A DNA stretch of 14,947 nucleotides, from contig JBFMGU010000260.1 in the NCBI GenBank assembly GCA_040752415.1, positions 1 through 14,947 on the forward strand, read 5' to 3'. This stretch comes from Myxococcota bacterium (lineage in GTDB: Bacteria > Myxococcota > JACRCW01). The notes under the pieces were generated by a model. The model did no database searches and was not told the DNA's origin. It saw only the letters and a list, made by a program, of their open reading frames with translations. The position numbers and the translations under genes are program-made. Shown piece after piece: positions 522 to 14,947 of this stretch. Position 1 is the first letter of the stretch, and each line of letters opens with the position of its first letter.

Positions 522-2197
522 GGAAGACACGCAGGGGAGCCGGAATCGCCACCGTCCTGGTGGTGTCGGCCCTGGTCCTGACCCTGGGGTTCACCCTGGC
601 GGCATCCAGCTTCATGCACCTGAACGTCAGCACCCAGGTGGTGAACGCCCAGCACGCCCGCGAGCTGGCCGAAAGCGTGGTGGCGGCGGGCATCCAGAAC
701 GTGGTGGAGTCCAGCGGGGCCTACGGTCGGGACGACAACCCCAGCTTCTCCCTGCCTGTCGAGGTGAGCCTGCAAGGGCTGCCGCCGGGGTCCACCGGAC
801 GGCTGGTATTCGACCCGGCCGAAGCTCGCCGGATGGGCATCCCCTACTCCACCAACCGGTTCGAGCGGACCGGAAGGCCGGGCTGGGGCGGCCGGATCGT
901 GCCGGAGGACTGCATCCACCTGGTGGGCACGGGTTCCTGCAACGGGGTGGTGCGCTCGGTGGAGGTGGTACTGCAGGTGCCGCGCTACCCTTACGCGCTG
1001 GCTGCCAACGGGCCCATCCGCTCTTCGGGGAGGATCCTGGTGGGAACCGTCACCCTGACGCAGGCCAGCACCCCCGGGGAAGGCATCGTGGGCGTCGACC
1101 CGGACGAGCTGCTGCCCGGGCACCTGGCCTCCAATGCCACCGACAACGACTCGGTGCGGCTGGCGTTGGACAGCCTGATCACGGGCAACCTGCGCAGCCG
1201 GGGCGGCGTGGTGCTCGACCCGACCGTGCAGGTCCGGGGGCAGGTGCGGGCCAACGGGGACTCCTCTCCGGTGCCCAGGGTCACCATCCCGTCGCTCGAC
1301 CCGGGCCCCCGGGCGCTGCCGCTGCCCCCCGTGGTGGAGCCCGACCCGGAGGCTCCCATCGTGGGCGAGCGCCGGGCCGTGGGCCCGGTGACGGTCAACG
1401 GGGACCTCCTCATGGCCCAGGCGGTGATCTACATCGACGGGGACCTGACCGTCCAAGGAGGGTTGATCGGGCAGGGTCTGGTGGCCTGCACCGGGCGCAT
1501 CCGCATCGACGGAGGCACCACGCTGGACGGCGGCAACCAGGCCGCGCTGCTGGCCGGGGAGGGGGTGGAGCTGATCGGCCGGGGAGCCGCCAGCTCTTCC
1601 TTCCAGGGCATCGTCTACAGCGAGGGGGAGCTTCTGGCCGACCAGATCAGCGTGTTGGGCGCGGCCGTGGTCAACGGGGACGGCACGGAAGGGGTCACCC
1701 TGCGGGACGCCGCCGCCGGGCACGTCCCCGAGTACACCCGCCTGAACATGAGCCTGCCGAATGCATACGCCAGGGCCATCCCCGACTCCTCGAACGCTAT
1801 GGTGACGATGTTCGCGGGGCCGCGGCGGCGCGGAGAGCCCTTCCAACCCACCACGTTCAAGATCGTCCCGTCCCAGCTCTACGTCAATGCCGTGCTGAAG
1901 AAGCCGGGCGACCCGCCCGGAACCGACTACAGCCGCACCTTCAGCAACTGGGCCCAGGCCGAGCCGTTTGCCCGGGACATCGTGGTCTGGTACCAGGGCT
2001 ACTACAACGGCCTGGGCCCGGGCGGCGGTCAGATGGTCAGAATCCTGCAAGGCTTCCTGGACGAATTCCCCACCCCGAGCGACACCTGGGGGGACGCCAA
2101 CCTGCCCACGGTGGCCTCCAACGACTTCACCTTCGACATCAACGAGTTCCTGAGCTTCGGCGACCGCCTCCGGGTGCGCTTCTGGCGCGAGTTCTGA
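518..2197 (+). CDS. PilX/GspK-like minor pilin-type protein with central beta-solenoid region (559 aa)
   Basis: N-terminus KTRRG|AGIATVLVVSALVLTLGFTLA resembles a class III (prepilin) signal lacking E5, as in PilX/GspK. It is followed by an ARELAES..AAGI helix, a central VNGDL/IYIDGDLTVQG/FQGIVYSEG beta-solenoid-like stretch and a C-terminal VRFWREF. GGAGG at 505-509; ATGA overlap with the kinase stop. Confidence 0.7.
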   Translation: MRKTRRGAGIATVLVVSALVLTLGFTLAASSFMHLNVSTQVVNAQHARELAESVVAAGIQNVVESSGAYGRDDNPSFSLPVEVSLQGLPPGSTGRLVFDPAEARRMGIPYSTNRFERTGRPGWGGRIVPEDCIHLVGTGSCNGVVRSVEVVLQVPRYPYALAANGPIRSSGRILVGTVTLTQASTPGEGIVGVDPDELLPGHLASNATDNDSVRLALDSLITGNLRSRGGVVLDPTVQVRGQVRANGDSSPVPRVTIPSLDPGPRALPLPPVVEPDPEAPIVGERRAVGPVTVNGDLLMAQAVIYIDGDLTVQGGLIGQGLVACTGRIRIDGGTTLDGGNQAALLAGEGVELIGRGAASSSFQGIVYSEGELLADQISVLGAAVVNGDGTEGVTLRDAAAGHVPEYTRLNMSLPNAYARAIPDSSNAMVTMFAGPRRRGEPFQPTTFKIVPSQLYVNAVLKKPGDPPGTDYSRTFSNWAQAEPFARDIVVWYQGYYNGLGPGGGQMVRILQGFLDEFPTPSDTWGDANLPTVASNDFTFDINEFLSFGDRLRVRFWREF

Positions 2198-2345: not shown

Positions 2346-3878
2346 TCAAAAGCGGGTGGAGAACTGGCCGTAGATCACGGGGGACTGGCCGGTGGAGTTG
2401 CGTCCCGGCGCGATGGGGAAGCCGAAGTCGAGGCGTCCCGAGAAGCGTTCTCCCAGGCCCAGGCGCAGGCCCACTCCGGCGCCGGTGAAGTCGCGCCCGA
2501 GGGGTTCTCCCGGCTGGGGGTTCTCCAGGCTGGCCCCGCCGTGGTCCAAAAAGGCAGCCAGTTGCAGGCGGGCAGCTTCGTCGTCCAACACCGAGCGGCG
2601 GTACTCCAGGCTGAGGGTGTAGCCCCGGTCTCCCAGGAACTCCGATTGGACGTAGCCGCGCACCGAGTCGGGACCGCCCAGGGCGAACTGCTCCCCCACC
2701 GTGAGCGGCTGGCCGGTGAGCTGGCCGCTGGCCCGCAGCAGCAGGAAGTTCCCCTGGCCGAGCTGGTGGACGTGGCTGGCGTCCAGGTTGAGCCTTCCGA
2801 ACGAGTTGCCGGACCCGGCCCGGCTGGCCACCGGGTTGCTGTTGGGCGAGCCGCCCAGGACGGTTCCCAGACCCTGGGTGTAGACGGCCGACAACCCGGT
2901 GTTGCCGTCCTCCGTCAGCCAGCGTGCCACGTAGCCCACGTTCAGCGACCGGATGCGGTCCTGGCTCAGAGTCAGGTTGCCCAGGATGGAGTTCTTCACG
3001 TCCTTGAGCTGGAACCCGCAGGTGAGGTCGGCCCGGTGGGAAAGCCTGCGCTCCAGGGGGTAGGCGTATTGAATCCCGTAGATGTCGGCCTCGCCCCGGA
3101 TGTCCAGCACGGCCAGCTCCTCGCCCACCAGCGTGTCCGCGCTGGCGTAGAAGAAGTTGAGCCGGTCGCCCGCCTGACTCACGGGGAAGCCGTAGAGCGC
3201 CTGCAGGAACGGCTGCACCTGGCGGGTGGGAAAGGGAAAGACGGAGCGGACGGCCAGGGTGTCCCCCTCGAGGATGGGGTTGCCCCAGGCCACGCTGAGG
3301 CCGGCCCGGTGCTCCCCCACGAAGCGGTTGCCGAAGTTGTTGTACTCGACGCCCACGTGGATCGGGTCCGAATCGTCCACCCGCAGGGTGACGTCGGTGG
3401 TGCCCGGAGCTTTGCCGGGAGATAGCACCGAGCGCACCTTGAGGTCCTCGAAGTCGTTCAGAATCAAGAGGGCCCGCTCCAGGTCGCCCGAGTGCAGCAC
3501 CCCGCGCTGGGTGGCGGGCGCGAAATACCAGCGCACGAAGTCGGCCGAGTAGGCCTGGTTGCCCTCCACCCGAACCTCGCCCACCCGTCCCTCGAGGACC
3601 TGGATGCGCACGCGGCCGTCCCGAATCTCCTGGGCGGGCACCAGGGCGCTGGCCAGGAAGTAGCCCTGGTCCCGATACAACTGCTCCACCCTGCGGGCGG
3701 CCTCGCGCAGCTCCTCCAGGCTGGCCTCCTTGCCCTCGAACGGGGCCAGCACCGCTCGGAGCTGGGACTCGGGCAGGACCGAGTTGCCCTCCACCACGAT
3801 CTCGCGCACGGTGAGCCCCTGGGCCAGGGCACAGACCGTCAGGGAGAGCCACAGCGCCAGCAGTTGAATCCGCTTCAC
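2346..3878 (-). CDS. TpsB (ShlB/FhaC/HecB family) two-partner secretion outer-membrane transporter (510 aa)
   Basis: Sec signal (MKRIQLLALWLSLTVCALA), two POTRA-like segments (VREIVVEGNSVL...YRDQGYFLA; VGEVRVEGN), YNNFGNRFVG barrel start, loop-6 GGPDSVRGY (nt 2652-2663 = VRGY), FLDHG motif and C-terminal Phe. GTG start. Confidence 0.93.
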   Translation of the reverse strand: MKRIQLLALWLSLTVCALAQGLTVREIVVEGNSVLPESQLRAVLAPFEGKEASLEELREAARRVEQLYRDQGYFLASALVPAQEIRDGRVRIQVLEGRVGEVRVEGNQAYSADFVRWYFAPATQRGVLHSGDLERALLILNDFEDLKVRSVLSPGKAPGTTDVTLRVDDSDPIHVGVEYNNFGNRFVGEHRAGLSVAWGNPILEGDTLAVRSVFPFPTRQVQPFLQALYGFPVSQAGDRLNFFYASADTLVGEELAVLDIRGEADIYGIQYAYPLERRLSHRADLTCGFQLKDVKNSILGNLTLSQDRIRSLNVGYVARWLTEDGNTGLSAVYTQGLGTVLGGSPNSNPVASRAGSGNSFGRLNLDASHVHQLGQGNFLLLRASGQLTGQPLTVGEQFALGGPDSVRGYVQSEFLGDRGYTLSLEYRRSVLDDEAARLQLAAFLDHGGASLENPQPGEPLGRDFTGAGVGLRLGLGERFSGRLDFGFPIAPGRNSTGQSPVIYGQFSTRF

Positions 3879-3992: not shown

Positions 3993-6900
3993 GTGGAAGT
4001 GGTGTTGCGAGCGAGCATCCTGCGCGCCGTCGCGTTGTTGGCGCTGCTATGCCCCTCTTTGTCCTCGGCCAACCCCACCGATCCCACCGTGGTCAGCGGC
4101 AGCGCCGTCGTTAACCAGACCAACCCCGCGGTCACCACCGTCACCCAGTACACCGACAGGGTCATCCTCAACTGGAACGGGTTCTCCATCGGGGTGGGCG
4201 AACTGACCCGCTTCATCCAGCCGAGCGACCTGGCCATCGCGCTGAACCGGGTCACCGGGGTCGATCCGTCCGTCATCCTGGGCTCGCTGCAGGCCAACGG
4301 CCGCATCTTCCTGGTCAATCCGAACGGTATCCTGTTCGGTCCCGGGTCCCAGGTGGACGTGGCCGGGCTGCTGGCCACCACGCTGAACCTCTCCGACGAG
4401 GACTTCCTCAACGGGAACTACCGGTTCTACCAGGATCCAAGCAAGGCCCTGTCCTACGTGGTCAACCAGGGTACCCTCACGGCCGCCGACGGCGGCAGCG
4501 TGATCCTTCTGGCCCCGCTGGTGAACAACGAGGGCGTCATCGTGGCCAACCTGGGCCAGGTCACCCTGGCCGGGGGCACCCGGGCGGTGGTCAACTTCGA
4601 CGGGGCGGGCCTGGTCAACCTGGCCCTGGGCGACTCCGACGCGGTACGCGGCTCGGTGCTGGCCGACCCCCAGGCGGTCAGCTCGCTCACCCAACTGGTG
4701 GTCAACCACCCCTCCGTGGTCGAGGCGGGCGCCGTGGTGCACCTGCCGGACGGCCGCATCCTGCTGCAGGGGGCCGAGGGCCTGGTCATCCAGGGCGGCG
4801 TCATCCGGGCGGACGGAGGCGTCCGGCCGGACCTGGGCGCCGGACCGGGCGGGTTGGTGGAGCAGAGCCTGGCCAACACGTCCGTGCGCCCGGGCGATCT
4901 GTCCTCCATCCCGCTGGCCACGGTCAACCACGGCTCGGATTCCGCCGGCAACGTCCTGTTGCACTCCACGGCCGGCACGGTCCTGGCCGACGGCAGCCTG
5001 ACTTCGGCCAGCGCCCCGTCCGCCCACGGCGGGGAAGTGATGGCCCTGTCGCAGGGGCTCACCGTGCTGGCGCCCGGCAGCCGCATCGAGGCGGCCGGAG
5101 GGGAAGGCGGGTTCATCGAGGTCAGCGGTCTCCAGAGCGTGGTGGTGCAGGGCTCGGTGGACACCGCGGGACCCCTGGGAACCTTCCTGATCGACCCCAC
5201 GGCGCTGACCGTGATCAACGGAGCCGGCCCGGGCACCCAGGACGCCCAGTTGCCCGACATCCTGTTCGGCGACCCCAACGTGGGGGCCAACACGGTCAGC
5301 GAAGTGGCCCTGGAGACCCAGGCCAGCGCCACCAATCTCATCCTGAGGGCCACCGGCACGGTGACCTTCAACAACCTGGCCGACGGCACCCTGGACCTCA
5401 CCAACGGCGGTACGCGGACGGACAAGTCGCTCACCGTGGAGACCCAGACCGGAAACATCACCTTCCTGGACCCGACCGACACGGTTCTGACCGGCGGCAC
5501 CGGGACCCTCACCTTCCGCTCGGCCATCAACGCCGGGAATTCGGGGGGCACGCTGGTGCTGGGCAACCTGACCACCCAGAACGGGGCGGTCACGCTGCAG
5601 TCGGACGGGAACCTGACCATGCGGCAGGTGAACTACGGCACCTCCACCCTGAGCGCCACCTCGGGGTTCGCCGGCATCCTGGACGGCAACGGGGCCACCG
5701 CCAACCTGGTGACGGCCGGGGCCGGCAACAGCGCCACCCTGACCGCGGCCGCGGGGATCGGGTCGGCCAACGCGCTGGAGACCTCCTCCACCGGGACCAC
5801 CGTGGTCAACTCGGCCACCGTGAGCGGGACGGGCGCGATCGGGCTGAGCGGCGTGGCCGGAAACCTGACCGTCAATACCGGGACCACCAACAACGGCGCC
5901 ATCACCCTGGGCGCCACCGGGGCGGACCTTACGGTGGGCACGCTAACGGCCGGCGGAGCCGGACGGAACGTCACCCTGACCACCGCCACCAGCGGGAACG
6001 TGAGCGTCGGCACCGTCACCGCCGCCGGCGACACCATCACGGTGAACGCAGCGGGCTCCCTGCTGGAGAACGGTGCGGACGCGGGCGCAGACCTGAACGC
6101 CAACATCCTGAACCTCACCGCAGGAAGCGGGATCGGGGCCGCCGGCGCCGCCCTGGAGGTGAACGGCACCACGCTGTCCACCGCCAACGTGACCGGAGCC
6201 GGGGTGATCAACCTGTCCGACACGGGGGGTGGCCTGACGGTGACCAGCGCCACCACGGCCAACGGGGCCATCACGCTCAACGCGGTCAGCGGCAACCTGA
6301 CCCTGGCCACCGTGACGGCGGGCGGCGCCGCCGACGTCAACCTGTCCACCACCACCAGCGGGAACGTCAACGCCGGCAACGTCACGGCCGCCGGGGACAC
6401 CATCACGGTCAACGCGGCGGGCTCCCTGCTGGAGAACGGCTCCGACCCGGGCCCGGACCTCACGGCCGCCAGCCTGAACCTGACCGCCGGGTCGGGGATC
6501 GGAACGGGGGCCAACGCCCTGGAGGTGAACGCCACCACGCTCAGCAACGCCAGCGTCACCGGAACCGGGCTCATCAACCTGAGGGACACCGCGGGCGGCC
6601 TGACGGTCACCAGCGCCACCACCGCCGACGGGGCCATCACCCTCAACGCGGTGGCCGGGACCCTGACGCTGAGCACCGTGACGGCCGGGGGCGCCGGGCG
6701 CAACATCTCGCTGTCCACCACCACCAGCGGCAACGTGAGCGCGGGCAACGTCACGGCCGCCGGCGACACCCTCACGGTCAACGCCGTCGGCTCCCTGCTG
6801 GAGAACGGGGGCGACGCGGGCGCGGACCTGACCGCAACCACGCTCAGTCTGACCGCCGGCGGCGGGATCGGAACCGGCGGGAACGCCCTGGAGGTGAACG

Positions 6901-9900
6901 GCACCACGCTGTCCACCGCCAATGTGACCGGGGCCGGGCTCATCAACCTGTCCGACACGGCCGGCGGTCTGGCCGTGACCAGCGCCACCACCAACAACGG
7001 GGCCATCACGCTCAACGCCGTGAGCGGCAACCTGACCCTGGCCACCGTGACGGCGGGGGGCGCCGCCAACGTCAACCTGTCCACCACCACCAGCGGCAAC
7101 GTGAGCGCGGGGAACGTCACGGCCGCCGGCGACACCATCACGGTCAACGCCGCCGGGTCCCTGCTGGAGAACGGGGCCGACGCGGGCGCGGACCTCACGG
7201 CCGCCACCCTGAGCCTGACGGCCGGGTCGGGGATCGGAACAGGGGCCAACGCCCTGGAGGTGAACGGCACCACGCTTTCTACCGCCAACGTCACCGCGGC
7301 CGGACTCATCAACCTGAGGGACACCGCGGGCGGTCTGACGGTCACCAGCGCCACCACCGCCAACGGGGCCATCACACTCAACGCCGTGAGCGGCAACCTG
7401 ACCCTGGCCACCGTGACTGCGGGCGGCGTCGCCAACGTCAACCTGTCCACCACCACCAGCGGCAACGTCAGCGCGGGAAACGTCACGGCCGCCGGGGACA
7501 GCATCACGGTCACCGCCGCGGGCTCCCTGCTGGAGAACGGGGCCGACCCGGGCGCGGACCTGACGGCCACCACCCTCAGCCTCACGGCCGGGAGCGGGAT
7601 CGGCACCGCCGCGGCTGCCCTGGAGGTGAACGGCACCACGCTGTCCGCCAACGTGACCGGAGCCGGGGTCCTCAACCTGTCCGACACCGCGGGCGGCCTG
7701 ACCGTGAGCGGCGCCAGCACCGCCAACGGGGCCATCACCCTGAACGCGGTGGGGGGCGACCTGACCCTGGCCACGGTCACGGCCGGCGGCACCGCCAACG
7801 TCAACCTGTCCACCACCACCAGCGGCAACGTCCTGGCCGGCAACGTCACGGCGGCCGGGGACACCATCACGGTCAACGCGGCCGGGTCCCTGCTGGAGAA
7901 CGGTGCGGACGCGGGGGCGGACCTGACCGCCACCACCCTGAGCCTGACCGCCGGAAGCGGGATCGGAGCCCCCGGGGCCGCCCTGGAGGTCAATGGCACC
8001 ACGCTGTCCACCGCCAACGTGACCGGCGCCGGGGTCATCAACCTCTCCGACACGGCGGGCGGTCTGTCGGTCACCAGCGCCACCACCGCCAACGGGGCCA
8101 TCACCCTCAACGCGGTGAGCGGCAACCTGACCCTGGCCACGGTCACGGCGGGCGGGGTGGCCGACGTCAACCTGTCCACCACCACCAGCGGCAACGTCAG
8201 CGCCGGCAACGTCACGGCCGCCGGGGACACCATCACGGTCAACGCCGCCGGCTCCCTGCTGGAGAACGGGGCGGATGTTGGGGCCGACCTGACCGCGGCC
8301 ACCCTCGACCTGACCGCCGGCTCGGGGATCGGAACGGCAGCCAACGCCATGGAGGTGAACGCCACCACGCTGAGCAACGCCAGCGTCACCGGAACCGGGC
8401 TCATCAACCTGTCCGACACGGCCGGGGGCCTGGCGGTGACCAGCGCCACCACCAGCAACGGGGCCATCACCCTGAACGCGGTGGCCGGAAACCTGACCCT
8501 GGGCACGGTGACGGCCGGTGGCGCCGGGCGCAACATCTCGCTGTCCACCACCACCAGCGGGAACGTGAACGTGGGCGACGTGCAGGCGCTGGGGGACACG
8601 ATCACCGTCGTCGCGGCCGGAGCGCTGGAGGAGAATGGCTCGGACCCGGCCGCGGACCTGTCGGCAGCCACGCTCAGCCTGACGGCCGTCAGCGGGATCG
8701 GCAACCTGGGGACGGTGGAGGTGGATGCCACCACCCTGTCCACGGCTAACGTCACGGGGGCCGGCGCCATCAACCTTTCCGACACGTCGGGGGGCCTGAG
8801 CGTGACCACCGCCACCACCCTCAACGGGAACATCACCCTGAACGCCGTGGGCTCGGACCTGACGGTGGCGGTGGTCACCGCGGGGGGTGCCGGCGACGTC
8901 TCCCTGTCCACCACCACCAGCGGAAACGTGAACGTGGGCAACGTGACGGCGCTGGCCGACACCATCACGGTCAACGCTGCAGGCTCTCTGCTCGAGAACG
9001 GGGCCGACGCCACGGCCGACCTCACCGCAGCCACGCTCGACCTCACCGCGGGCACGGGGATCGGGGCGGCCGGAGCCACGCTGGAAGTCAACGCCACGAC
9101 GCTGAGCAACGCCAACGTGACCGGCACCGGGGTCATCAACCTGTCGGACCTGGCGGGCGGCCTGTCGGTGACCAGCGCCACCACGTCGGACGGGGCCATC
9201 ACCCTCAATGCGGTGGCCGGAAATCTGACGCTGGGCACCGTGACCGCCGGCGGAACCGCCAACATCACGCTGTCCACTACCACCAGCGGGAACGTCAACG
9301 CGGGCGACGTCACGGCCGCGGGAGACACCATCACGGTCACGTCCGCGGGAAGCATCCAGGAAAACGGCGCCGACGCGGCGGCCGACCTGACCGCAGCCAC
9401 CCTGAGCCTGACGGCCGCCACCGGCATCGGCACCCTGGGCACGCTGGAGGTGGACGGCACCACGCTGTCCACCGCCAACGTGACCGGAGCGGGAGCCATC
9501 GACCTGTCGGACACGGCCGGGGGCCTCTCGGTCACCAGCGCCACCACCACCAACGGGGCGATCACCCTGAACGCGGTGGCGGGCGACCTGACCCTGGCCA
9601 CCGTGACGGCAGGCGGCGTGGCCAACGTCTCGCTGTCCACCACGACCAGCGGGAACGTCAACGCGGGCGACGTCACGGCCGCCGGGGACACCATCACGGT
9701 CAACGCCGCCGGTTCCCTGCTCGAGAGCGGGGCGGACGCGGCGGCGGACCTCACGGCCGCCACGCTCGACCTCACCGCGGGCACGGGGATCGGGGCCACC
9801 GGCGCCCCGCTGGAGGTGAACGCCACCACGCTCAGCAACGCCAGCGTCACCGGCACCGGAGTCATCAACCTGGCCGACACGGCGGGGGGCCTGTCGGTGA

Positions 9901-12011
9901 CCAGCGCCACCACCGCGGACGGAGCCATCACCCTCAATGCGGTGGCCGGGAACCTGACCCTGGGCACGGTTACGGCCGGCGGGACCGCCGACGTCGCCCT
10001 GTCCACCACCACCAGCGGCAACGTGAGCGTGGACAACGTCGCGGCGGCCGGGGACAGCATCACGGTCAACGCAGCCGGCTCCCTGCTGGAGAACGGGGCC
10101 GACGCGGCCGCCGACCTCACCGCCGGCACGCTCGACCTGACGGCCGCAGCGGGGATCGGAGCGGCCGGCGCGGTCCTGGAGGTGGACGCCACCACGCTCA
10201 GCAACGCCAACGTAACGGGGGTCGGCGTCCTGAACCTGTCCGACACGGCGGGCGGCCTGACGGTCACCAGCGCCACCACGACGGACGGAGCCATCACCCT
10301 CGACGCCGTGGCCGGGGACCTTACCCTGGCGACCGTGACGGCGGGCGGAACAGCCGACGTCACCCTGTCCACCACCACCAGCGGGAACCTGAACGTGGAC
10401 AACGTCACGGCGGCCGGGGACACCATCACGGTGAATTCCGCCGGCGCCATCGAGGAGAGCGGCGCCGACGCCGCCGCCGACCTGACCGCCGCCAACGTGA
10501 GCCTGACGGCGGCTGCTGGCATCGGCAACCTGGGCTCCCTGGAGGTGGACGCGGATGACGGCGGCCTCGCGCTGTCGGTGACCGGGGCCGGCAACGTGGA
10601 TGTGACGGAGACCGCGGGGCCCCTCACGCTGGGGAACTTTGCCAGCGTGGACGGGTCGATCTCGCTGACAGCCACCGGTGGCGACCTGACCGTGGCCGAC
10701 CTTACGGCCAACGGGGCCGGCCGGACGGTCACCCTGACCACCCTCGGCGCCGGGGACGTCAACGTGGGGAACGTGACCGCTTCCGGGATCACGGTCACCT
10801 CGGTGGGTGCGATCGAGGAGAACGGAAGCGACGCCGCCGCCGATCTCACCGCGGGCACGCTGAACCTCTCGGCCGTGTCGGGCATCGGTGCGGCCGACAC
10901 GCTGGAGGTAGACGCCACCACCCTGACCGGCGCGGAGGTGACCGGGCCGGGCCCCATCGACCTGAGCGACACGGCCGGGGGACTCGCGGTGACCAGCGCC
11001 ACCACCGCCGACGGGAACGTAACGCTCAACGCCGTGTCGGGCGACCTTACCCTGACCGCCGTGACGGCGGGCGGCACAGGGGACCTCGTCGCCTCGACCA
11101 CCGGAGGTGGAAACCTGTTCGTGGGCTCTCTGACCGCCGCCGGCGACTCCATCCTCTTGAACAGCGCCAGCGCGGTCCTGGACCAGAACGGGAACGGGGT
11201 CAACCTGACGGCCGACTCGGCCTCGCTGCAGGCGACCGGGACGCTCGGAACCGCGGTCGACGCCCTGGACACCGACGTCACCACGATGTCCGCCGCCGGC
11301 ACCAACCTGTTCGTCAGCGAGGCGAACGGGCTCACCCCGGCCCTGGTAGGAGGACTGACGGGGCTGGTCGCCGCCGGGGACGCCTCGGTAACCGTCCTGG
11401 CGGGCGACCTGGACCTGGGCCACGCCAGCCTGGGTGCCGCGCCCGCGCTCCAGGCGGGGGGTGGCCTCACCGTGAACGCGGTCCTGGGGAACGTGCTGGG
11501 CGACACGGACGAAACCGCACCTGACCTCGTCGCCGGGAGCGCGTGGCTGACGGCCGGGGGCGTGCTGGGCACCTCCGCGGTGCCCCTGGACCTGGCCGTG
11601 GTGGGGAGCCTGTCGGTAGCCGCGTCCGGGGTGCAGGGGGGGATCTCCGCCAACCTGCAGGGGACCGCAGGTTCCGTGGCGGTCCAGAATGCCCCCCCGG
11701 GTCAAGTCCTGTTCAACGGAGCGGTGATCTACCCGCCCGCTCCGCCGGTGCCCCCGGCGCCGCCGGTCCCTCCCGCTCCGCCCACCCCACCGGCACCGCC
11801 GGCTCCCGCGCCGGTCACCCCCAGCGCCACCCCCACCGAGAGCGCCGAGACCGCCCCGGCCGCGACCCCCGTGGACAGCGCCCTGGTGGAGGAGCTGGGT
11901 CTGGGCAACACCACCAACTACTTCCCCGCCGCGCCGACCGTGACGGCCGGCTCCGACTCCCTGCTCAAGGACGCTCGCTTCCTGATGCAGAAGCGCCACC
12001 GGAAAGACTGA
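3993..12011 (+). CDS. TpsA filamentous haemagglutinin-family exoprotein/adhesin (2672 aa)
   Basis: Sec signal ending SLSSA|NP (mature start about nt 4071). TPS secretion domain: ILNWNGFSIG, LNRVTG, GSLQANGRIFLVNPNGILFG (NPNG at 4317-4328). Long T/A/G/N-rich repeat stalk, Pro-rich linker, short basic tail. Adjacent to tpsB. The start could be one of the in-frame GTG/TTG codons at 3993-4005. Confidence 0.93.
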   Translation: MEVVLRASILRAVALLALLCPSLSSANPTDPTVVSGSAVVNQTNPAVTTVTQYTDRVILNWNGFSIGVGELTRFIQPSDLAIALNRVTGVDPSVILGSLQANGRIFLVNPNGILFGPGSQVDVAGLLATTLNLSDEDFLNGNYRFYQDPSKALSYVVNQGTLTAADGGSVILLAPLVNNEGVIVANLGQVTLAGGTRAVVNFDGAGLVNLALGDSDAVRGSVLADPQAVSSLTQLVVNHPSVVEAGAVVHLPDGRILLQGAEGLVIQGGVIRADGGVRPDLGAGPGGLVEQSLANTSVRPGDLSSIPLATVNHGSDSAGNVLLHSTAGTVLADGSLTSASAPSAHGGEVMALSQGLTVLAPGSRIEAAGGEGGFIEVSGLQSVVVQGSVDTAGPLGTFLIDPTALTVINGAGPGTQDAQLPDILFGDPNVGANTVSEVALETQASATNLILRATGTVTFNNLADGTLDLTNGGTRTDKSLTVETQTGNITFLDPTDTVLTGGTGTLTFRSAINAGNSGGTLVLGNLTTQNGAVTLQSDGNLTMRQVNYGTSTLSATSGFAGILDGNGATANLVTAGAGNSATLTAAAGIGSANALETSSTGTTVVNSATVSGTGAIGLSGVAGNLTVNTGTTNNGAITLGATGADLTVGTLTAGGAGRNVTLTTATSGNVSVGTVTAAGDTITVNAAGSLLENGADAGADLNANILNLTAGSGIGAAGAALEVNGTTLSTANVTGAGVINLSDTGGGLTVTSATTANGAITLNAVSGNLTLATVTAGGAADVNLSTTTSGNVNAGNVTAAGDTITVNAAGSLLENGSDPGPDLTAASLNLTAGSGIGTGANALEVNATTLSNASVTGTGLINLRDTAGGLTVTSATTADGAITLNAVAGTLTLSTVTAGGAGRNISLSTTTSGNVSAGNVTAAGDTLTVNAVGSLLENGGDAGADLTATTLSLTAGGGIGTGGNALEVNGTTLSTANVTGAGLINLSDTAGGLAVTSATTNNGAITLNAVSGNLTLATVTAGGAANVNLSTTTSGNVSAGNVTAAGDTITVNAAGSLLENGADAGADLTAATLSLTAGSGIGTGANALEVNGTTLSTANVTAAGLINLRDTAGGLTVTSATTANGAITLNAVSGNLTLATVTAGGVANVNLSTTTSGNVSAGNVTAAGDSITVTAAGSLLENGADPGADLTATTLSLTAGSGIGTAAAALEVNGTTLSANVTGAGVLNLSDTAGGLTVSGASTANGAITLNAVGGDLTLATVTAGGTANVNLSTTTSGNVLAGNVTAAGDTITVNAAGSLLENGADAGADLTATTLSLTAGSGIGAPGAALEVNGTTLSTANVTGAGVINLSDTAGGLSVTSATTANGAITLNAVSGNLTLATVTAGGVADVNLSTTTSGNVSAGNVTAAGDTITVNAAGSLLENGADVGADLTAATLDLTAGSGIGTAANAMEVNATTLSNASVTGTGLINLSDTAGGLAVTSATTSNGAITLNAVAGNLTLGTVTAGGAGRNISLSTTTSGNVNVGDVQALGDTITVVAAGALEENGSDPAADLSAATLSLTAVSGIGNLGTVEVDATTLSTANVTGAGAINLSDTSGGLSVTTATTLNGNITLNAVGSDLTVAVVTAGGAGDVSLSTTTSGNVNVGNVTALADTITVNAAGSLLENGADATADLTAATLDLTAGTGIGAAGATLEVNATTLSNANVTGTGVINLSDLAGGLSVTSATTSDGAITLNAVAGNLTLGTVTAGGTANITLSTTTSGNVNAGDVTAAGDTITVTSAGSIQENGADAAADLTAATLSLTAATGIGTLGTLEVDGTTLSTANVTGAGAIDLSDTAGGLSVTSATTTNGAITLNAVAGDLTLATVTAGGVANVSLSTTTSGNVNAGDVTAAGDTITVNAAGSLLESGADAAADLTAATLDLTAGTGIGATGAPLEVNATTLSNASVTGTGVINLADTAGGLSVTSATTADGAITLNAVAGNLTLGTVTAGGTADVALSTTTSGNVSVDNVAAAGDSITVNAAGSLLENGADAAADLTAGTLDLTAAAGIGAAGAVLEVDATTLSNANVTGVGVLNLSDTAGGLTVTSATTTDGAITLDAVAGDLTLATVTAGGTADVTLSTTTSGNLNVDNVTAAGDTITVNSAGAIEESGADAAADLTAANVSLTAAAGIGNLGSLEVDADDGGLALSVTGAGNVDVTETAGPLTLGNFASVDGSISLTATGGDLTVADLTANGAGRTVTLTTLGAGDVNVGNVTASGITVTSVGAIEENGSDAAADLTAGTLNLSAVSGIGAADTLEVDATTLTGAEVTGPGPIDLSDTAGGLAVTSATTADGNVTLNAVSGDLTLTAVTAGGTGDLVASTTGGGNLFVGSLTAAGDSILLNSASAVLDQNGNGVNLTADSASLQATGTLGTAVDALDTDVTTMSAAGTNLFVSEANGLTPALVGGLTGLVAAGDASVTVLAGDLDLGHASLGAAPALQAGGGLTVNAVLGNVLGDTDETAPDLVAGSAWLTAGGVLGTSAVPLDLAVVGSLSVAASGVQGGISANLQGTAGSVAVQNAPPGQVLFNGAVIYPPAPPVPPAPPVPPAPPTPPAPPAPAPVTPSATPTESAETAPAATPVDSALVEELGLGNTTNYFPAAPTVTAGSDSLLKDARFLMQKRHRKD
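5640..11600 (+). repeat. Intragenic tandem repeat array in tpsA: about 15 conserved units of 363-369 nt (121-123 aa) plus degenerate flanking units
   Basis: The anchor codon of the LLENG-type motif recurs at 6066, 6432, 6801, 7167, 7533, 7896, 8262, 8631, 8994, 9360, 9723, 10089, 10455, 10818 and 11184. Degenerate copies lie near 5685 and 11500. Confidence 0.92.
11733..11870 (+). repeat. Proline-rich linker (PPAPPV/T/A x4, 18-nt unit, then P/T/A-rich) near the TpsA C-terminus
   Basis: Translation PPAPPVPPAPPVPPAPPTPPAPPAPAPVTPSATPTESAETAPAATP; synonymous codons differ between units. Confidence 0.9.
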
Positions 12012-12679
12012 TGCGGACCTGGCTGGCGGCCCTCTTGCTGCTGCTCACCCTGCCGGCGCGGGCCCAGACCCCGGAGGAGGCGGACGCCGCCAGCGCGGCC
12101 CTGTCAGCTCAGTTGTCCGCGGGGCTGAGGGTGACCTGGACGGGGCAGGGGCTCTCCTGCGGGCCGATCCTCCTCACGGGTCTCTCCAACGGCAGCGGCG
12201 CCCCGCTGACGGTGCGCCTGGTGCCGGGAATGGTCCTGACGCCCTCCGACGACGGGCAGCGCATGATGCTGGCGTCGCGGCACGAAGTCGCGCTCCAGGC
12301 CGGCCAGGAGGCCAGCGTGATGCCGGAAGGCTACTGCCTGGACCCCTCCAAAGACCCGCCGCCCAGGGGACAGGCGGTGAACTATTCGCTGGGGTCCGGG
12401 TTCGCGGCCGACCTGACCCTCATCCGCGTGGGCGAGCGACTGGCCGCGGAGGGGCGGTTCGGCCCCGAGTTCCCCCCCGACCAGCGCAAGGTGGTGGTCA
12501 TCCAGCGCGCCATCTGGGCCTCCCGAGGCTACACCCGCCAGGACCTGGCCGTGGAAATCGCCGACGAATTCGCCGCCCGGACCGACCCCAACCGGGCCGG
12601 CTCGGTATCGCCCGAGGCCCTGGCGGACTCGATCTGGCGCGACGTCGAGCTGGTGCTGCGAGAAGCCGGACAACGCTGA
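12011..12679 (+). CDS. Exported 222-aa protein with thioester-domain (TED)-like motifs
   Basis: True start is most likely ATG 12011 (TGATG overlap with the tpsA stop), not 11543 as in the ORF track. Signal peptide MRTWLAALLLLLTLPARA|Q. Motifs GYCLDPSKDPP (C109) and VIQRAIW (Q165). The CDS is well supported; the TED call is tentative. Confidence 0.75.
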   Translation: MRTWLAALLLLLTLPARAQTPEEADAASAALSAQLSAGLRVTWTGQGLSCGPILLTGLSNGSGAPLTVRLVPGMVLTPSDDGQRMMLASRHEVALQAGQEASVMPEGYCLDPSKDPPPRGQAVNYSLGSGFAADLTLIRVGERLAAEGRFGPEFPPDQRKVVVIQRAIWASRGYTRQDLAVEIADEFAARTDPNRAGSVSPEALADSIWRDVELVLREAGQR

Positions 12680-12741: not shown

Positions 12742-14448
12742 ATGAGAATCGTGGGAGTTCGGGACCCGGCCGATCGCCCCCCAGCCTCCAACGCAGGGGC
12801 GGCCCCGCAGGACTCGTTCCAGCACTCTTTAACCGGACTCAACCAGAACGCCAATCTGTTCGACGACCCGAACAGCCTGGGAACCGACACCGACGGGACG
12901 GTCTCCTACGAGGACGTTCTGACCGTGGCGTCCTGGGCAGATGACCCGGCCGCGCGCGAGAGGCTGGCGGCTCAGGGCTACACTCCCGGGCAAATCGACC
13001 AGATCCTGCAGACGGCCGCCTTCTTTCGAGACAACCCTGTGTACTTCTGGGCCATCGCCAACCAGACCGGCGAGGAGGGCAAGATCGATGGGACCGACCT
13101 GGATACCGCGGACGTGTTTCTGGCCACCACGGGCCAGGATCCGGCCAGCCTCGACACCACCCAGGAGGCCCTCAGCACGCTGCTGTTCTATTGGGACCTG
13201 TTGGACACGGCCGCCAGGGGCGGGGGAGGTGACGGCCAGGTTTCCCGGGCCGACCTGGAAGCCGCGCTCCAGCAGGCTCTGCCGGCCGACCTGCGGGCCG
13301 CCATCGAGTACATGCTGGCCACGCCGGCGGGGGACGCCACGCGCTTCGAAAACCTCTCACAGCACCTCAACTATGGCGGTGAGACCTTCCAGCGGGGCCT
13401 GTTCGAGACCCTGGTAGCCCTGGACAACCCGGTGGCCCTGAACGTGGTGACCGACCACCAGAGCCTGGAGTTGACCGTCGAGATCGAGGAAGACGGCGAC
13501 TTCCTCTGGGCGGACTCGGGAACCCCCCTCACCGTGGCCGAGGTCGAGGCGATGTACGCGGCCAGGGACGGGGGGCGGTCACCACTCTCGGAAGTCTTTC
13601 GCGATACCCTCTTCGATCTGGAGACCTTTTTCGGCGAGTATGCCGGAGCCGAGGAAGGCGTGCCCGGGTGGCTGCACGCCGTCCTCGACTTCGTGGGCAT
13701 GGCCCCCGTGGTCGGGGGCCCGGCGGACGGGATCAATGCGGGCCTGTACGCTCTCGAGGGAGACTACCTCAATGCGGGAATCTCCCTGTTCGGGCTGGTT
13801 CCCGTCGCGGGAGAGGTAGCCGTGGGAGGCCGCATCGTCCGGGGCGTCGGCGACGACGTGGTCGAGGAGGTCGCCGAGGGGGCCGTCAGCCGCGAAACGC
13901 GCCAGGAAGTGGGAGAAGGGGCCGCGCGAGGCGCTGGCCACGCAGCCGCGGACGGGGTCGACCCCCTGTTCGAGGCGGCCCGACGGGCTGGTTACCGGGG
14001 GGGAGCCGACACGTTTGCCCAACTGCTTCAGGCGGCCCGGAAGCTTTATCCCGAGTATGCCGACAACCCACGCTTCTGGGAACTGGCCGCGGATCCGGCC
14101 CACGCTGGCAACATCTTTGACAAGACCATGCGGGAGGCCTACGTGGGATTGAAGCTGGAGGAGGCCGGCGTCCTGAAGGCCCCGATCACCCGCTGGCCCA
14201 ACGCCGACGCCGAGTTTGCCGACGCGGCAGGCCGGCCCTGGGACATCAAGACGTTCAACTCCAAGTATGGCTATAACCGGGCCGACGCGGCCGGCAAGAT
14301 CCAAAGGGAACTGGCCCGGGGGGAAAACGTGATTCTGGACACCAAGGATCTGTCTCCCGGGGATCTCGCCGACCTCAGGCAGGCGGTCGCGGAGATGATC
14401 GCCCAGGACCCTTCGCTGAAGGATCGGATCCTCTGGTTCCCCGGGTAG
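12742..14448 (+). CDS. Polymorphic toxin: EF-hand-like/HrpF-NolX-like N-terminal repeats, PT-TG-like pre-toxin motif, C-terminal restriction-endonuclease-fold (PD-(D/E)xK-like) nuclease (568 aa)
   Basis: No Sec signal. Acidic loops DTDGTVSYEDV, GEEGKIDGTDLD and DGQVSRADLE. WLHAVLDFVGMAPVVGGPADGINAGLYALEGDYLNAGISLFGLVPVAG (from nt 13669) matches the pre-toxin TG-type helical motif. The tip has LAADPAH..REAYVGLKLE..AEFADAAGRPWDIKTF..ENVILD (E465, E491, D501, K503). Confidence 0.8.
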   Translation: MRIVGVRDPADRPPASNAGAAPQDSFQHSLTGLNQNANLFDDPNSLGTDTDGTVSYEDVLTVASWADDPAARERLAAQGYTPGQIDQILQTAAFFRDNPVYFWAIANQTGEEGKIDGTDLDTADVFLATTGQDPASLDTTQEALSTLLFYWDLLDTAARGGGGDGQVSRADLEAALQQALPADLRAAIEYMLATPAGDATRFENLSQHLNYGGETFQRGLFETLVALDNPVALNVVTDHQSLELTVEIEEDGDFLWADSGTPLTVAEVEAMYAARDGGRSPLSEVFRDTLFDLETFFGEYAGAEEGVPGWLHAVLDFVGMAPVVGGPADGINAGLYALEGDYLNAGISLFGLVPVAGEVAVGGRIVRGVGDDVVEEVAEGAVSRETRQEVGEGAARGAGHAAADGVDPLFEAARRAGYRGGADTFAQLLQAARKLYPEYADNPRFWELAADPAHAGNIFDKTMREAYVGLKLEEAGVLKAPITRWPNADAEFADAAGRPWDIKTFNSKYGYNRADAAGKIQRELARGENVILDTKDLSPGDLADLRQAVAEMIAQDPSLKDRILWFPG

Positions 14449-14459
14449 GAGGAGGGAGC

Positions 14460-14947
14460 ATGATCGCCGAGCACGGGCTGTGGTTGGATTCCGCGGGCCT
14501 GGAGGGCCGCAGACTGGAGGAGTCCCACCTGGACTGGCGCGGTCGGGCCCTCTCCCGGGCGCGGTTGTGCCAGGCGGTGCTGCCAGGAGCATCCCTGGAC
14601 GGTGCCCGGCTGGACGGCGCCGACCTTTATGCCGCCTTTCTCCACTCGGCTTCACTGGTGGGCAGCGACCTGCGCGGCGCGGTCCTGGTCCGGTCCGAGT
14701 TGGACGGGGCGGACCTGACCGAGGCCGACCTGTCGGGGGCATCTCTGTCGGGCGCCTGCGTCAGCGGAGCCTGCCTCCGAAGGGCCAACCTGACGGCGGC
14801 AGACCTGAGCGGGGCGGACCTGTCCCGGTCCGACCTCGAGGCGGCCTGCCTGCGACAGGCCCGCCTGGACCGAGCTCTGTTCCAGGATACCCGGCTGGAC
14901 CAGGCCGACCTGACCGGGTGCACCGGGCTCGCGACGGCGCAGGTCTG
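14460..14947 (+). CDS. Pentapeptide-repeat protein, candidate immunity protein (3' truncated by window edge; not in ORF track)
   Basis: Strong SD GGAGGAGGGAG directly after the toxin stop, ATG at 14460, frame open to the window end. Translation MIAEHGLWLDSAGLEGRRL...ASLDG ARLDG ADLYA AFLHS ASLVG SDLRG ... ADLTE ADLSG ASLSG ... ANLTA ADLSG ADLSR gives classic A(D/N)Lxx repeats. Confidence 0.9.
   Translation, partial: MIAEHGLWLDSAGLEGRRLEESHLDWRGRALSRARLCQAVLPGASLDGARLDGADLYAAFLHSASLVGSDLRGAVLVRSELDGADLTEADLSGASLSGACVSGACLRRANLTAADLSGADLSRSDLEAACLRQARLDRALFQDTRLDQADLTGCTGLATAQV

What the first reader, a model, noticed from the sequence alone, without database searches (positions are those of the whole stretch)
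14074..14947. Nuclease-fold toxin tip followed by a pentapeptide-repeat gene in the immunity slot: possible DNA-mimic immunity
Seen: the toxin ends in an E...AEFxD...WDIK motif set, and 11 nt after its stop a pentapeptide-repeat ORF begins with a strong SD; this ORF is missing from the supplied track. Established: polymorphic toxins are typically followed by their cognate immunity gene, and pentapeptide-repeat proteins such as MfpA and Qnr form quadrilateral beta-helices that mimic B-DNA. Inference: the downstream protein neutralises the nuclease by acting as a substrate mimic, which is not a textbook immunity mechanism. The substrate (DNA versus tRNA/rRNA) cannot be determined from sequence.
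Basis: partly seen in the sequence, partly recalled or inferred. Interest (0 to 1): 0.85.

Follow-up and report, generated by a model that had tools for sequence, protein, structure and literature searches.

The report
Nuclease toxin with pentapeptide-repeat immunity gene
A secreted bacterial toxin ends in a restriction-enzyme-like nuclease domain, and the pentapeptide-repeat gene right behind it is almost certainly its antidote, an unusual antidote type conserved across many bacteria.

Summary
The gene at 12742-14448 (568 aa) ends in a 126-aa domain with invariant E465, D494, D501 and K503. Eleven bases after its stop, behind a GGAGG site, a pentapeptide-repeat (PRP) gene starts (Pfam PF00805, E 1.5e-31). 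The contig end cuts it short.

The tip matches no Pfam or NCBIfam model. It is the C-terminal module of 561 protein clusters with varied delivery domains (WXG100, PrsW, PAAR, RHS, HINT, LysM, MuF). Its AlphaFold model (pLDDT 97) has a PD-(D/E)xK core. The best solved match is the Burkholderia CdiA-CT E479 tRNase (Z 11.6), then the 1026b tRNase (Z 8.4).

In 55 assessable non-redundant loci from other genomes and metagenomes, 43 have a PRP gene directly downstream. For close tips the count is 34 of 36. PRP-like ORFs occur almost nowhere else in those loci.

The toxin/immunity reading is therefore strongly supported. The DNA-mimic mechanism is untested, because the complex predictor never ran, and the nearest structures are tRNases. 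A 2026 preprint notes a PRP-like immunity (Tse6/Tsi6a) in passing. I rate this a new variant of a known kind.

The parts
12742..14448 (+). Polymorphic-toxin gene (P0001, 568 aa). The N-terminal 400 aa have no detectable relatives; the C-terminal part is the nuclease tip.
   Evidence: ORF and translation. GC3 0.84. No Pfam or NCBIfam family. Residues 1-400 found only themselves and have no paralogue in the genome.
13660..13827 (+). Gly/Pro-rich hydrophobic segment (aa 307-362). By eye it resembles a pre-toxin TG (PT-TG) linker.
   Evidence: Read from the sequence; the PT-TG motif is recalled from memory. Pfam found nothing for aa 287-400 even at E 10. 4 of 98 tip-bearing relatives carry PF14449 PT-TG. 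The Atlas feature score for a PT-TG cluster is 0.77, a lead only.
14068..14445 (+). Toxin tip (aa 443-568): a PD-(D/E)xK nuclease-fold domain of a family not in Pfam.
   Evidence: 561 clusters match at E <= 0.001; in the 150 best listed the match lies at or near the C-terminus. AF2 model pLDDT 97.4 with helix-strand-strand-strand-helix-strand order. VIA-align Z 11.6, rmsd 2.1 A over 100 residues to 5j4a_C; Z 8.4 to 4g6v_A.
14134..14136 (+). Codon of E465, the invariant acidic residue of helix 1.
   Evidence: Invariant. Lies in helix residues 18-32 of the model.
14209..14250 (+). AEFAD (aa 490-494) and WDIK (aa 500-503): the D...DxK catalytic signature on strands 2 and 3.
   Evidence: D494, W500, D501 and K503 are invariant in 41 sequences. 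D501 and K503 are invariant in 98. Strand positions.
14449..14459 (+). 11-nt spacer carrying the Shine-Dalgarno run (GGAGGAGGGAG, starting in the stop codon). It implies operon-like coupling of the two genes.
   Evidence: Read from the sequence. In relatives the gap between the toxin stop and the PRP start is -47 to +136 nt.
14460..14947 (+). Pentapeptide-repeat protein gene (P0002, 162 aa seen; 3' end lost at the contig end). It is the predicted cognate immunity protein, cytoplasmic, net charge -7.
   Evidence: PF00805 E 1.5e-31. Same family as the downstream genes of tip loci elsewhere, 38-46% identity; 177.9 bits to the family profile. Charge and pI.

Best explanation
Genes 12742-14448 and 14460->14947 form a polymorphic toxin/immunity cassette.

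The toxin carries a lineage-specific N-terminal region and a linker, and ends in a 126-aa metal-dependent PD-(D/E)xK nuclease. The predicted catalytic residues are E465, D494, D501 and K503. After delivery into a rival cell this domain cuts nucleic acid. tRNA or other RNA is slightly more likely than DNA, because the closest solved folds are two CdiA-CT tRNases.

The producer protects itself with the co-translated cytoplasmic pentapeptide-repeat protein. This is an acidic rod of about 7 beta-helix coils with an N-terminal helix and a C-terminal cap. I infer that it binds the tip one-to-one and blocks the substrate cleft or active site.

Shown here: the fold and motif of the tip; its modular C-terminal spread on many delivery domains; and the conserved, position-specific pairing with this PRP family.

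Inferred: toxicity, the substrate, direct binding, and that the block works by occupying the nucleic-acid site.
For: Tip fold and motif:
- The tip is a family of its own with invariant E, D and DxK.
- It scores Z 11.6 and 8.4 to the CdiA-CT E479 and 1026b nucleases. The next matches are other PD-(D/E)xK proteins: XisH-like 2okf, PaqCI, CdiA-CT YPIII and EC869. Foldseek's weak top rows are also PvuII, Ecl18kI, EndoMS and influenza PA endonuclease. Atlas leads point to PF18664 CdiA_C_tRNase clusters.

Modular spread:
- In the 150 best of 561 clusters, the tip sits at or near the C-terminus of proteins of 122-1381 aa.
- Among 98 bearers scanned: WXG100 in 5, PrsW in 5, eCIS_core in 4, PT-HINT in 4, PT-TG in 4, PAAR in 3, RHS in 1.
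- PRP-linked loci carry DUF6861, LysM+SH3, MuF, PG_binding and PT-HINT N-termini.

Pairing with the PRP gene:
- 12 of 13 tip loci in other genomes of the phylum have a Pfam-confirmed PRP gene next downstream.
- 37 of 47 downstream ORFs from genome and metagenome contigs are PRPs.
- At 90% redundancy, 43 of 55 assessable clusters have a PRP, and 34 of 36 for close tips.
- Of 50 PRP-like ORFs in 218 kb of loci, 47 are in that slot on the toxin strand.
- The own genome has only 2 PRP loci.

The PRPs are one family:
- They share an N-terminal helix, a KANLDY coil and a C-terminal module.
- The full-length model has pLDDT 96.
- They are acidic: median net charge -7 over the 48 PRPs measured.
- They diverge faster than the tips (mean identity 32% against 48%) while co-varying with them: r 0.59, with 0 of 2000 permutations reaching it.

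Precedent: in the solved E479 and 1026b complexes the immunity proteins contact active-site residues directly (passages of PMC9086364).
Against: - No test of binding or toxicity could be run.
- Tips are near neutral (median net charge -2; the window tip is -3). A simple electrostatic DNA-mimic picture is therefore weak.
- 9 of 55 assessable clusters have other downstream genes: Sel1 repeats, a helical family of about 115 aa, and unrelated enzymes. Three more had no ORF by my criteria.
- 7 of 16 family-type PRP genes in other genomes of the phylum sample have no intact tip upstream. One has a 32-aa tip remnant; the others sit beside kinases or unknown genes. This fits orphan immunity genes, but it also allows a toxin-independent role.
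- Co-divergence is expected from linkage alone.
- The window PRP lacks the conserved R108 and has R in place of K88.
- The route of export of P0001 is unknown: no signal peptide or known delivery domain.
Confidence: 0.65

Rival explanations
1. The PRP is the immunity protein but works at an exosite. It binds the tip away from the active site and inactivates it by restraining or mis-orienting it, as reported for the EC869/TA271-type CdiA-CT/CdiI pairs. No mimicry of nucleic acid is involved.
For: In the TA271 and YPIII complexes, which share the PD-(D/E)xK fold, the active site stays exposed (passages of PMC9086364). Tips are not basic overall. PRPs diverge fast, as specificity-determining binders do.
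Against: The nearest structural relatives (E479, 1026b; Z 11.6 and 8.4, against 5.5-5.7 for TA271/YPIII) are the ones whose immunity proteins contact the active site. The tip lacks the extra beta-hairpin used for exosite binding in TA271, as far as the secondary-structure string shows.
Confidence: 0.15
2. The PRP protects the toxin's cellular target rather than binding the toxin. Qnr, MfpA, McbG and AlbG do this for DNA gyrase against poisons.
For: The PRP fold matches MfpA, QnrB1 and AlbG at Foldseek E 6e-9 to 4e-7. PRPs that give self-resistance to gyrase poisons are established (abstract of PMC7897471). Orphan copies of the family exist without a toxin gene.
Against: Scores to the Qnr and MfpA NCBIfam models are 20-44 bits against cut-offs of 240-500. 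Generic PRPs (NP275/276, HetL, designed solenoids) match better than Qnr or MfpA. The toxin has an intact nuclease signature, not a known gyrase-poison fold. A target protector should be conserved, yet these PRPs diverge faster than the tips.
Confidence: 0.08
3. The PRP is not an immunity protein. It would instead be an accessory factor (chaperone, adaptor or regulator) of the toxin, like the pentapeptide proteins found with DUF2169 in some T6SS clusters.
For: PRPs are described as T6SS accessory proteins (reference titles seen). The PRP family also occurs apart from tips.
Against: The PRP follows the tip whatever the delivery domain: WXG100/T7SS-type, PAAR/RHS, MuF, LysM, HINT. It also follows short tip-only ORFs such as L007 (155 aa). 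It therefore tracks the toxic module, not a secretion machine. No other candidate immunity gene lies in the slot.
Confidence: 0.07

Closest known systems
CdiA-CT(E479)/CdiI and CdiA-CT(1026b)/CdiI of Burkholderia pseudomallei (PDB 5J4A, 4G6V; Pfam PF18664 CdiA_C_tRNase)
   Same: PD-(D/E)xK core. Best structural matches: Z 11.6 (rmsd 2.1 A, 100 residues aligned to the 116-residue chain, 20% identity) and Z 8.4. Like those domains, the tip is a C-terminal toxin module followed by an immunity gene. The Atlas's nearest clusters carry PF18664 in 12-23% of members.
   Different: No sequence-level membership. PF18664 does not match the tip, and the PDB profile search does not find these chains. The tip keeps a canonical DxK lysine, whereas E479 has His in its place. 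The immunity proteins are unrelated folds. The carrier here is not a CdiA: it shows no similarity to the neighbouring TpsA.
Tox-REase families of Zhang et al. 2012 (PMC3482391), especially Tox-REase-2 (PF15646)
   Same: REase-fold polymorphic-toxin tips with a D-(D/E)xK signature. Tox-REase-2 is listed with WXG and PrsW architectures and no known immunity protein (table passage). The present family also occurs with WXG100 and PrsW.
   Different: PF15646 gives no match in the genome at E 10, nor in the Pfam scans. The word 'pentapeptide' does not occur in the held 300,000 characters of that paper; the rest of the text and its supplements were not seen.
Tse6/Tsi6a of Stenotrophomonas rhizophila and DYE20_11250/11255 of Mycobacterium chelonae (bioRxiv 10.64898/2026.07.13.738213)
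   Same: An Rhs C-terminal toxin of unknown fold, 'assigned' as a nuclease, whose immunity resembles a protein annotated as pentapeptide-repeat. Orthologues are reported in Actinomycetes, Planctomycetes and Myxococcota with PAAR, Rhs, HINT, TPS or no delivery domain (abstract and sections 5 and 8 read). This may be the same family.
   Different: Identity with the present tip could not be tested, because no Tse6 sequence was available. That work gives no fold assignment, catalytic residues or survey of the pairing, and its immunity claim rests on AlphaFold3 predictions. Its supplements were not seen.
DNA-mimicking pentapeptide-repeat proteins MfpA, Qnr and AlbG
   Same: Right-handed quadrilateral beta-helix, acidic.
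   Different: Those proteins act on DNA gyrase. Scores are far below the family cut-offs. This family has its own N-terminal helix, KANLDY coil and C-terminal hairpin-helix.
Rehh HNH DNase with acidic 'DNA-mimic' immunity proteins (bioRxiv 10.64898/2026.09.22.753552)
   Same: The concept: immunity to a nuclease toxin by mimicking the substrate's charge and shape (discussion passages).
   Different: A different toxin fold (HNH). The text has no pentapeptide-repeat immunity (0 occurrences).

Membership tests
PD-(D/E)xK (restriction-endonuclease-like) nuclease superfamily | [quoted passage not shown] | tested here: met
   In the AF2 model (pLDDT 97.4): helix 18-32; strands 41-42, 50-51 and 57-62; helix 71-83; strand 87-91.
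PD-(D/E)xK (restriction-endonuclease-like) nuclease superfamily | Conserved acidic residue in helix 1, D at strand 2, (D/E)xK on strand 3 | tested here: met
   E465, D494 and D501-I-K503 are invariant or nearly so in 41 and 98 sequences.
PD-(D/E)xK (restriction-endonuclease-like) nuclease superfamily | Structural similarity to solved members | tested here: met
   Z 11.6, 8.4, 6.6, 5.9, 5.7 and 5.5 to CdiA-CT E479, CdiA-CT 1026b, XisH-like 2okf, PaqCI, CdiA-CT YPIII and EC869.
PD-(D/E)xK (restriction-endonuclease-like) nuclease superfamily | Metal-dependent nuclease activity | not testable with these tools
   Needs an enzyme assay.
Pfam PF18664 CdiA_C_tRNase | Match to the family HMM above its cut-off (26.5 bits) | tested here: not met
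   No match in hmmscan at E 10. The six-frame search of the genome with PF18664 gave no match in C180.
Pfam PF15646 Tox-REase-2 | Match to the family HMM above its cut-off (27.6 bits) | tested here: not met
   No match at E 10 anywhere in the genome. None.
Polymorphic toxin system | The same C-terminal toxin module on diverse N-terminal delivery or carrier domains | tested here: met
Polymorphic toxin system | Cognate immunity gene immediately downstream, co-inherited with the tip | tested here: met
   43 of 55 assessable non-redundant loci have the PRP gene in that slot. Neutralisation itself was not tested.
Polymorphic toxin system | Recognisable secretion or delivery domain in this protein | tested here: not met
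   P0001 residues 1-400 match no Pfam or NCBIfam family and have no homologues. There are only weak Atlas leads: NolX/HrpF 0.85, PT-TG 0.77.
Pentapeptide-repeat protein family (PF00805) | At least 8 tandem A(D/N)LXX repeats, HMM above cut-off | tested here: met
   108 bits against a cut-off of 20.2. A full-length homologue has 28 pentapeptides, which is 7 coils.
Qnr / MfpA gyrase-protecting PRPs | Match to the NCBIfam equivalog models above their cut-offs | tested here: not met
   Best scores are 44.3 bits (QnrA, cut-off 450), 33.9 (MfpA, cut-off 360) and 30 (Qnr, cut-off 240).
CDI (CdiB/CdiA/CdiI) system | The toxin tip is the C-terminus of the TpsA/CdiA exoprotein, or an orphan copy sharing its pre-toxin region | tested here: not met
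   The tip lies in a separate 568-aa gene. BLASTP of P0001 against the TpsA gives no match better than E 2.

The most novel reading that the evidence does not exclude
Pentapeptide-repeat beta-helices are a recurrent, convergently recruited class of immunity proteins that neutralise nuclease toxins by imitating a nucleic-acid helix. Here the rod of 7 coils (about 34 A by my own estimate, not a computed value) would imitate the coaxial acceptor/T-arm stack of tRNA in the cleft of an E479-like tRNase. That would make it a protein mimic of tRNA used as a toxin antidote. Uncharacterised YjbI-like pentapeptide genes lie next to GH-E HNH toxins that have no known immunity protein (PMC5714182, passage). 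That would be a second, independent instance.
Probability: 0.2. Interest if true: 0.85.

Novelty: new variant of a known kind. Interest (0 to 1): 0.62.

Why it matters
- It adds an unannotated toxin domain family. 561 clusters carry it, and the public names seen describe only the N-terminal domains.
- It assigns a concrete, testable cellular role to a pentapeptide-repeat family. A 2021 review names only two clear PRP functions and never uses the word 'immunity' (term search of PMC8145042).
- If binding is confirmed, the pair is a compact model for how a rigid repeat scaffold evolves specificity for an enzyme cleft.
- It would also show whether protein mimicry of DNA or tRNA is a general route to nuclease immunity.
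- For annotation, a PRP gene right after an unannotated C-terminal domain becomes a marker for toxin cassettes.

Tried and rejected
- **Complex prediction.** The queue was full each time, then the tool was declared unavailable. Nothing was folded, so there is no result either way.
- **Locus search with large alignments.** A four-sequence alignment, A5, worked. It sampled only loci sharing two short peptide patterns.
- **Sequence search of the PDB** with the tip profile gave only chance-level rows, E >= 0.22.
- **Foldseek against the PDB** gave no row at E <= 0.001. The CdiA-CT match came only from the exhaustive VIA-align search.
- **Pfam and NCBIfam on the tip, linker and N-terminus** found nothing.
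- **Homologue search with residues 1-400** returned only the query. Only proteins of 312-994 aa were searched.
- **Continuation of the PRP gene on another contig.** No overlap was found.
- **Orphan CdiA-CT idea.** I considered that P0001 is an orphan CdiA-CT of the neighbouring TpsA and rejected it.
- **The second PRP gene of the genome (C321)** has no tip-like neighbour. The coordinates printed are unreliable because the contig is shorter than the slice I asked for.
- **Identity of Tse6 with this tip.** Names for eight tip bearers gave no link.
Full report
**What is in the window**

The window is a whole 14,947-base contig (C180) of an 11-Mb, 69% G+C draft genome. Third-position G+C identifies the real genes:
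- a protein-kinase fragment at 3-521;
- an unknown 559-aa gene at 518-2197;
- a ShlB/FhaC-type TpsB transporter at 2346-3878 on the minus strand;
- a 2672-aa TpsA exoprotein with a TPS domain at 3993-12011;
- a 222-aa gene with a signal-peptide-like start at 12011-12679;
- the 568-aa gene of the finding at 12742-14448 (P0001);
- the open-ended gene at 14460-14947 (P0002).

One tip locus of the same phylum (L011) is at least 90% identical to a record titled Myxococcaceae (L020). The nearest named relative is from Archangium violaceum. The genome is therefore probably a member of Myxococcota.

- The stop codon TAG is at 14446-14448.
- A GGAGGAGGGAG run spans 14448-14458.
- ATG follows at 14460, after 11 nt.
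- The motifs are E465/E473, AEFAD (490-494) and WDIK (500-503).
- P0002 matches Pfam Pentapeptide at E 1.5e-31.
- P0002 lacks about 30 C-terminal residues because the contig ends. No other contig continues it.

**What the tip is**

No Pfam or NCBIfam model matches P0001 or its pieces, even at E 10.

An exhaustive phmmer search with residues 400-568 found 561 cluster representatives at E <= 0.001 and 237 at E <= 1e-10. In the 150 best listed, the match lies at or near the C-terminus of proteins of 122 to 1381 aa.

Pfam scanning of 98 full-length bearers gave WXG100 in 5, PrsW protease in 5, eCIS core in 4, PT-HINT in 4, PT-TG in 4, PAAR in 3, DUF6861 in 3 and RHS in 1, among others. I gave that of the 108 sequences aligned, because of a size limit hit. 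This pattern is the signature of a polymorphic-toxin C-terminal module.

A 41-sequence alignment has D451, E465, R484, D494, W500, D501, K503 and S507 invariant.

AlphaFold2 on that alignment gave pLDDT 97.4 and a helix-strand-strand-strand-helix-strand core. E465 sits on the first helix, D494 after strand 2 and D501-x-K503 on strand 3.

Structure comparison:
- Foldseek found nothing at E <= 0.001. Its weak top rows are largely restriction enzymes and the influenza PA endonuclease.
- The exhaustive VIA-align search gave CdiA-CT of B. pseudomallei E479 (5j4a_C) at Z 11.6, rmsd 2.1 A over 100 residues, 20% identity.
- CdiA-CT 1026b (4g6v_A) scored Z 8.4.
- Other PD-(D/E)xK proteins followed at Z 6.6 and below, including the DNase-type CdiA-CTs of Yersinia and E. 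coli at 5.7 and 5.5.

By the passages I read of the review PMC9086364, E479 and 1026b are tRNases. Their CdiI proteins contact active-site residues. The TA271/YPIII type are Zn-dependent DNases whose immunity proteins bind elsewhere.

The ESM Atlas gave the same lead: its nearest clusters carry PF18664 CdiA_C_tRNase in 12-23% of members. At the sequence level the tip is not a member of PF18664 or of Tox-REase-2. The PDB profile search does not find the CdiA-CT chains either.

**Is the pentapeptide gene in the immunity slot by rule or by chance?**

Three independent samples of tip loci were drawn by the tip alone.

1. A profile search of 401 genomes of the phylum found the tip in 14, including the window's genome. 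That makes 13 loci elsewhere. One is split by an ISL3 transposase (L010/L017) and one is read in two frames (L011/L016). In 12 of the 13 the next gene on the same strand, at -41 to +19 nt, is a Pfam-confirmed pentapeptide protein. The exception, L013, is followed by an enoyl-CoA hydratase.
2. and 3. Pattern scans of genome and metagenome contigs gave 4 and 55 loci.
   - 47 had a candidate downstream ORF. Of these, 37 were pentapeptide proteins by Pfam and 10 were not.
   - Two more (L054, L058) duplicate positives and were not sent to Pfam.
   - Ten had no candidate. Six of those had too little sequence downstream.

After clustering tips at 90% identity there are 59 clusters from 76 loci. The non-own clusters split into 43 with a PRP, 9 with something else, 3 with no ORF by my criteria and 3 not assessable. 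That is 43 of 55 assessable. For tips with profile E <= 1e-39 the count is 34 of 36.

The exceptions are mostly divergent tips with a longer C-terminal tail. Four of them share a different, helical downstream protein of about 115 aa (L052, L061, L066, L072). One close tip (L019) is followed by a Sel1-repeat protein.

Controls:
- Across 217,906 bases of 74 loci, 47 of 50 six-frame ORFs with a pentapeptide score of 10 or more lie in the slot on the toxin strand. Two of the other three are the long toxin ORFs themselves.
- The window's own genome has PF00805 matches at only two loci.
- The PRP follows the tip behind DUF6861, LysM+SH3, MuF, peptidoglycan-binding and PT-HINT N-termini.
- It also follows short tip-only ORFs.

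The PRP therefore tracks the toxic module, not a secretion system.

**The PRP family**

The downstream proteins form one family of about 200-215 aa. They have an N-terminal helix (H..W..S.G..G..L), a repeat core with a nearly invariant K in an L.KANLDYA coil, and a C-terminal module.

A full-length member (locus L006) models at pLDDT 96. It has an N-terminal helix, 28 pentapeptides (7 coils) and a C-terminal hairpin plus helix. It matches solved pentapeptide proteins: NP275/276, HetL, MfpA, QnrB1 and AlbG. Scores to the Qnr and MfpA NCBIfam models are far below their cut-offs.

Charge and divergence:
- The PRPs are acidic: median net charge -7 and pI 5.2 over the 48 measured. The window's PRP is -7 with pI 4.85.
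- The tips are near neutral: median -2. The window's tip is -3.
- PRPs diverge faster than tips (mean pairwise identity 32% against 48%) and co-vary with them: r 0.59, with 0 of 2000 permutations reaching it. Linkage alone would also produce this.

The best conserved surface positions are basic: K88 (97%) and R108 (86%), stacked one coil apart. The window protein has R at the first site and G at the second.

**The reverse question**

A profile of the PRP family over the same 401 genomes gave 17 full-length-type matches at 175 bits or more. Generic PRPs start at 122 bits.

Of the 16 outside the window's genome:
- 9 sit behind tips found before;
- 1 sits behind a 32-aa tip remnant and itself has a stop codon;
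- 6 have no tip. Two of these lie beside kinase genes, one has an in-frame stop and one is truncated.

This looks like the orphan immunity genes and decayed cassettes usual for such systems. It also leaves room for a toxin-independent role.

**Mechanism**

Shown: the fold, the motif, the modularity and the pairing.

Inferred: the tip is a metal-dependent nuclease acting in the target's cytoplasm, and the PRP binds it directly.

I think occlusion of the substrate cleft is the most likely mode, for three reasons. The nearest solved relatives are neutralised that way. The PRP is an acidic rod of nucleic-acid-like dimensions. The two genes are translationally coupled.

Whether this is true mimicry of a helix, a basic K/R plug into the acidic metal site, or exosite binding cannot be told here. 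The complex predictor never ran.

The substrate is open. The two best structural neighbours are tRNases, so 'DNA mimic' may be the wrong nucleic acid.

How P0001 is exported is also unknown. Its first 400 residues have no relatives. It is unrelated to the neighbouring TpsA. The only leads are weak Atlas scores for NolX/HrpF (0.85) and PT-TG (0.77).

**Literature**

I ran six full-text searches.

- Zhang et al. 2012 (PMC3482391): 'pentapeptide' occurs 0 times in the 300,000 characters held. Tox-REase-2 is listed with WXG and PrsW architectures and no immunity protein. Supplements were not seen.
- The 2021 PRP review (PMC8145042): 0 occurrences of 'immunity' or 'antitoxin'.
- Jablonska et al. 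2017 (PMC5714182, one passage): YjbI-like pentapeptide genes lie next to GH-E HNH toxins for which no immunity gene was found.
- bioRxiv 10.64898/2026.07.13.738213 (abstract and sections 5 and 8 read): describes the Rhs toxin Tse6 of unknown fold. It says the cognate antitoxin of a structurally similar M. chelonae T7SS toxin is annotated as pentapeptide-repeat and resembles the immunity protein Tsi6a. Orthologues are reported in Actinomycetes, Planctomycetes and Myxococcota. Interactions there are AlphaFold3 predictions. This may be the same family, which I could not test.
- bioRxiv 10.64898/2026.09.22.753552 (passages): proposes DNA-mimic immunity for an HNH toxin.

I found no paper that assigns this tip to the PD-(D/E)xK fold. 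None surveys the tip-PRP pairing, and none proposes pentapeptide proteins as nucleic-acid-mimic immunity proteins. These searches cover only the held library.

**Verdict**

This is a real and well-conserved toxin/immunity cassette with an unusual immunity fold. The toxin family is new to the domain databases but belongs to a known superfamily and a known kind of system. The mimicry idea remains an attractive, testable hypothesis.

Noticed in passing
window 2346-3878 (-) and 3993-12011 (+): A two-partner secretion pair: a TpsB (ShlB + POTRA_2) and a 2672-aa TpsA with only a TPS domain recognised. The TpsA has no recognised C-terminal toxin and no similarity to P0001. Whether it has anything to do with export of P0001 is unknown.
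   Followed up: partly
window 12011-12679 (+): A 222-aa gene whose ATG overlaps the TpsA stop codon. It has a signal-peptide-like start (MRTWLAALLLLLTLPARAQ), no family and no paralogue in the genome.
   Followed up: partly
window 3-521 (+) and 518-2197 (+): The C-terminal part of a Ser/Thr protein kinase, cut by the contig start, followed by a 559-aa gene with GC3 0.92 and no Pfam family.
   Followed up: no
L010 and L017 (G217:C1, about 2087758-2092898): A tip-bearing toxin gene is split by an ISL3-family transposase gene (DDE_Tnp_ISL3, E 2.4e-80). The 3' remnant is still followed by the pentapeptide gene.
   Followed up: partly
L052, L061, L066, L072 (also L074/L075): Divergent tips with an extra C-terminal tail are followed by a helical protein of about 110-116 aa with no Pfam family. 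Four of these are related to each other (27-40% identity). This looks like a second immunity family for the tip superfamily.
   Followed up: partly
L019:2915-3898: A close tip (profile E 2e-57), in a record titled Myxococcales, is followed by a 328-aa Sel1-repeat protein instead of a pentapeptide protein.
   Followed up: no
L014:1968-3188 (= L094): The pentapeptide protein behind a divergent tip is fused to an FHA domain; it is 407-412 aa long.
   Followed up: no
L084, L085, L088, L089, L091, L093: Family-type pentapeptide genes with no tip upstream. Two lie directly behind kinase genes (APH-type in L088, Ser/Thr kinase in L085). L091 has an in-frame stop and L093 is truncated. They may be orphan immunity genes.
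   Followed up: partly
L006:1934-2542 (PRP residues 88 and 108); window 14460-14947: In an acidic protein family the two best conserved surface residues are basic: K88 (97%) and R108 (86%), stacked on successive coils next to the conserved NLDY stretch. The window protein has R and G at these sites. This is a candidate contact for the toxin's acidic metal site.
   Followed up: partly
window 12742-13941 (P0001 residues 1-400): The Atlas feature search places the N-terminal region nearest to NolX/HrpF T3SS-translocon clusters (score 0.85, below the level where such hits are reliable). A Myxococcota cluster has 12% NolX members. Pfam NolX does not match.
   Followed up: no
G000 contig C321, about 5900-6430 (-): The only other pentapeptide gene of the genome (37% identical to P0002 over 166 aa) has no tip-like neighbour.
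   Followed up: partly
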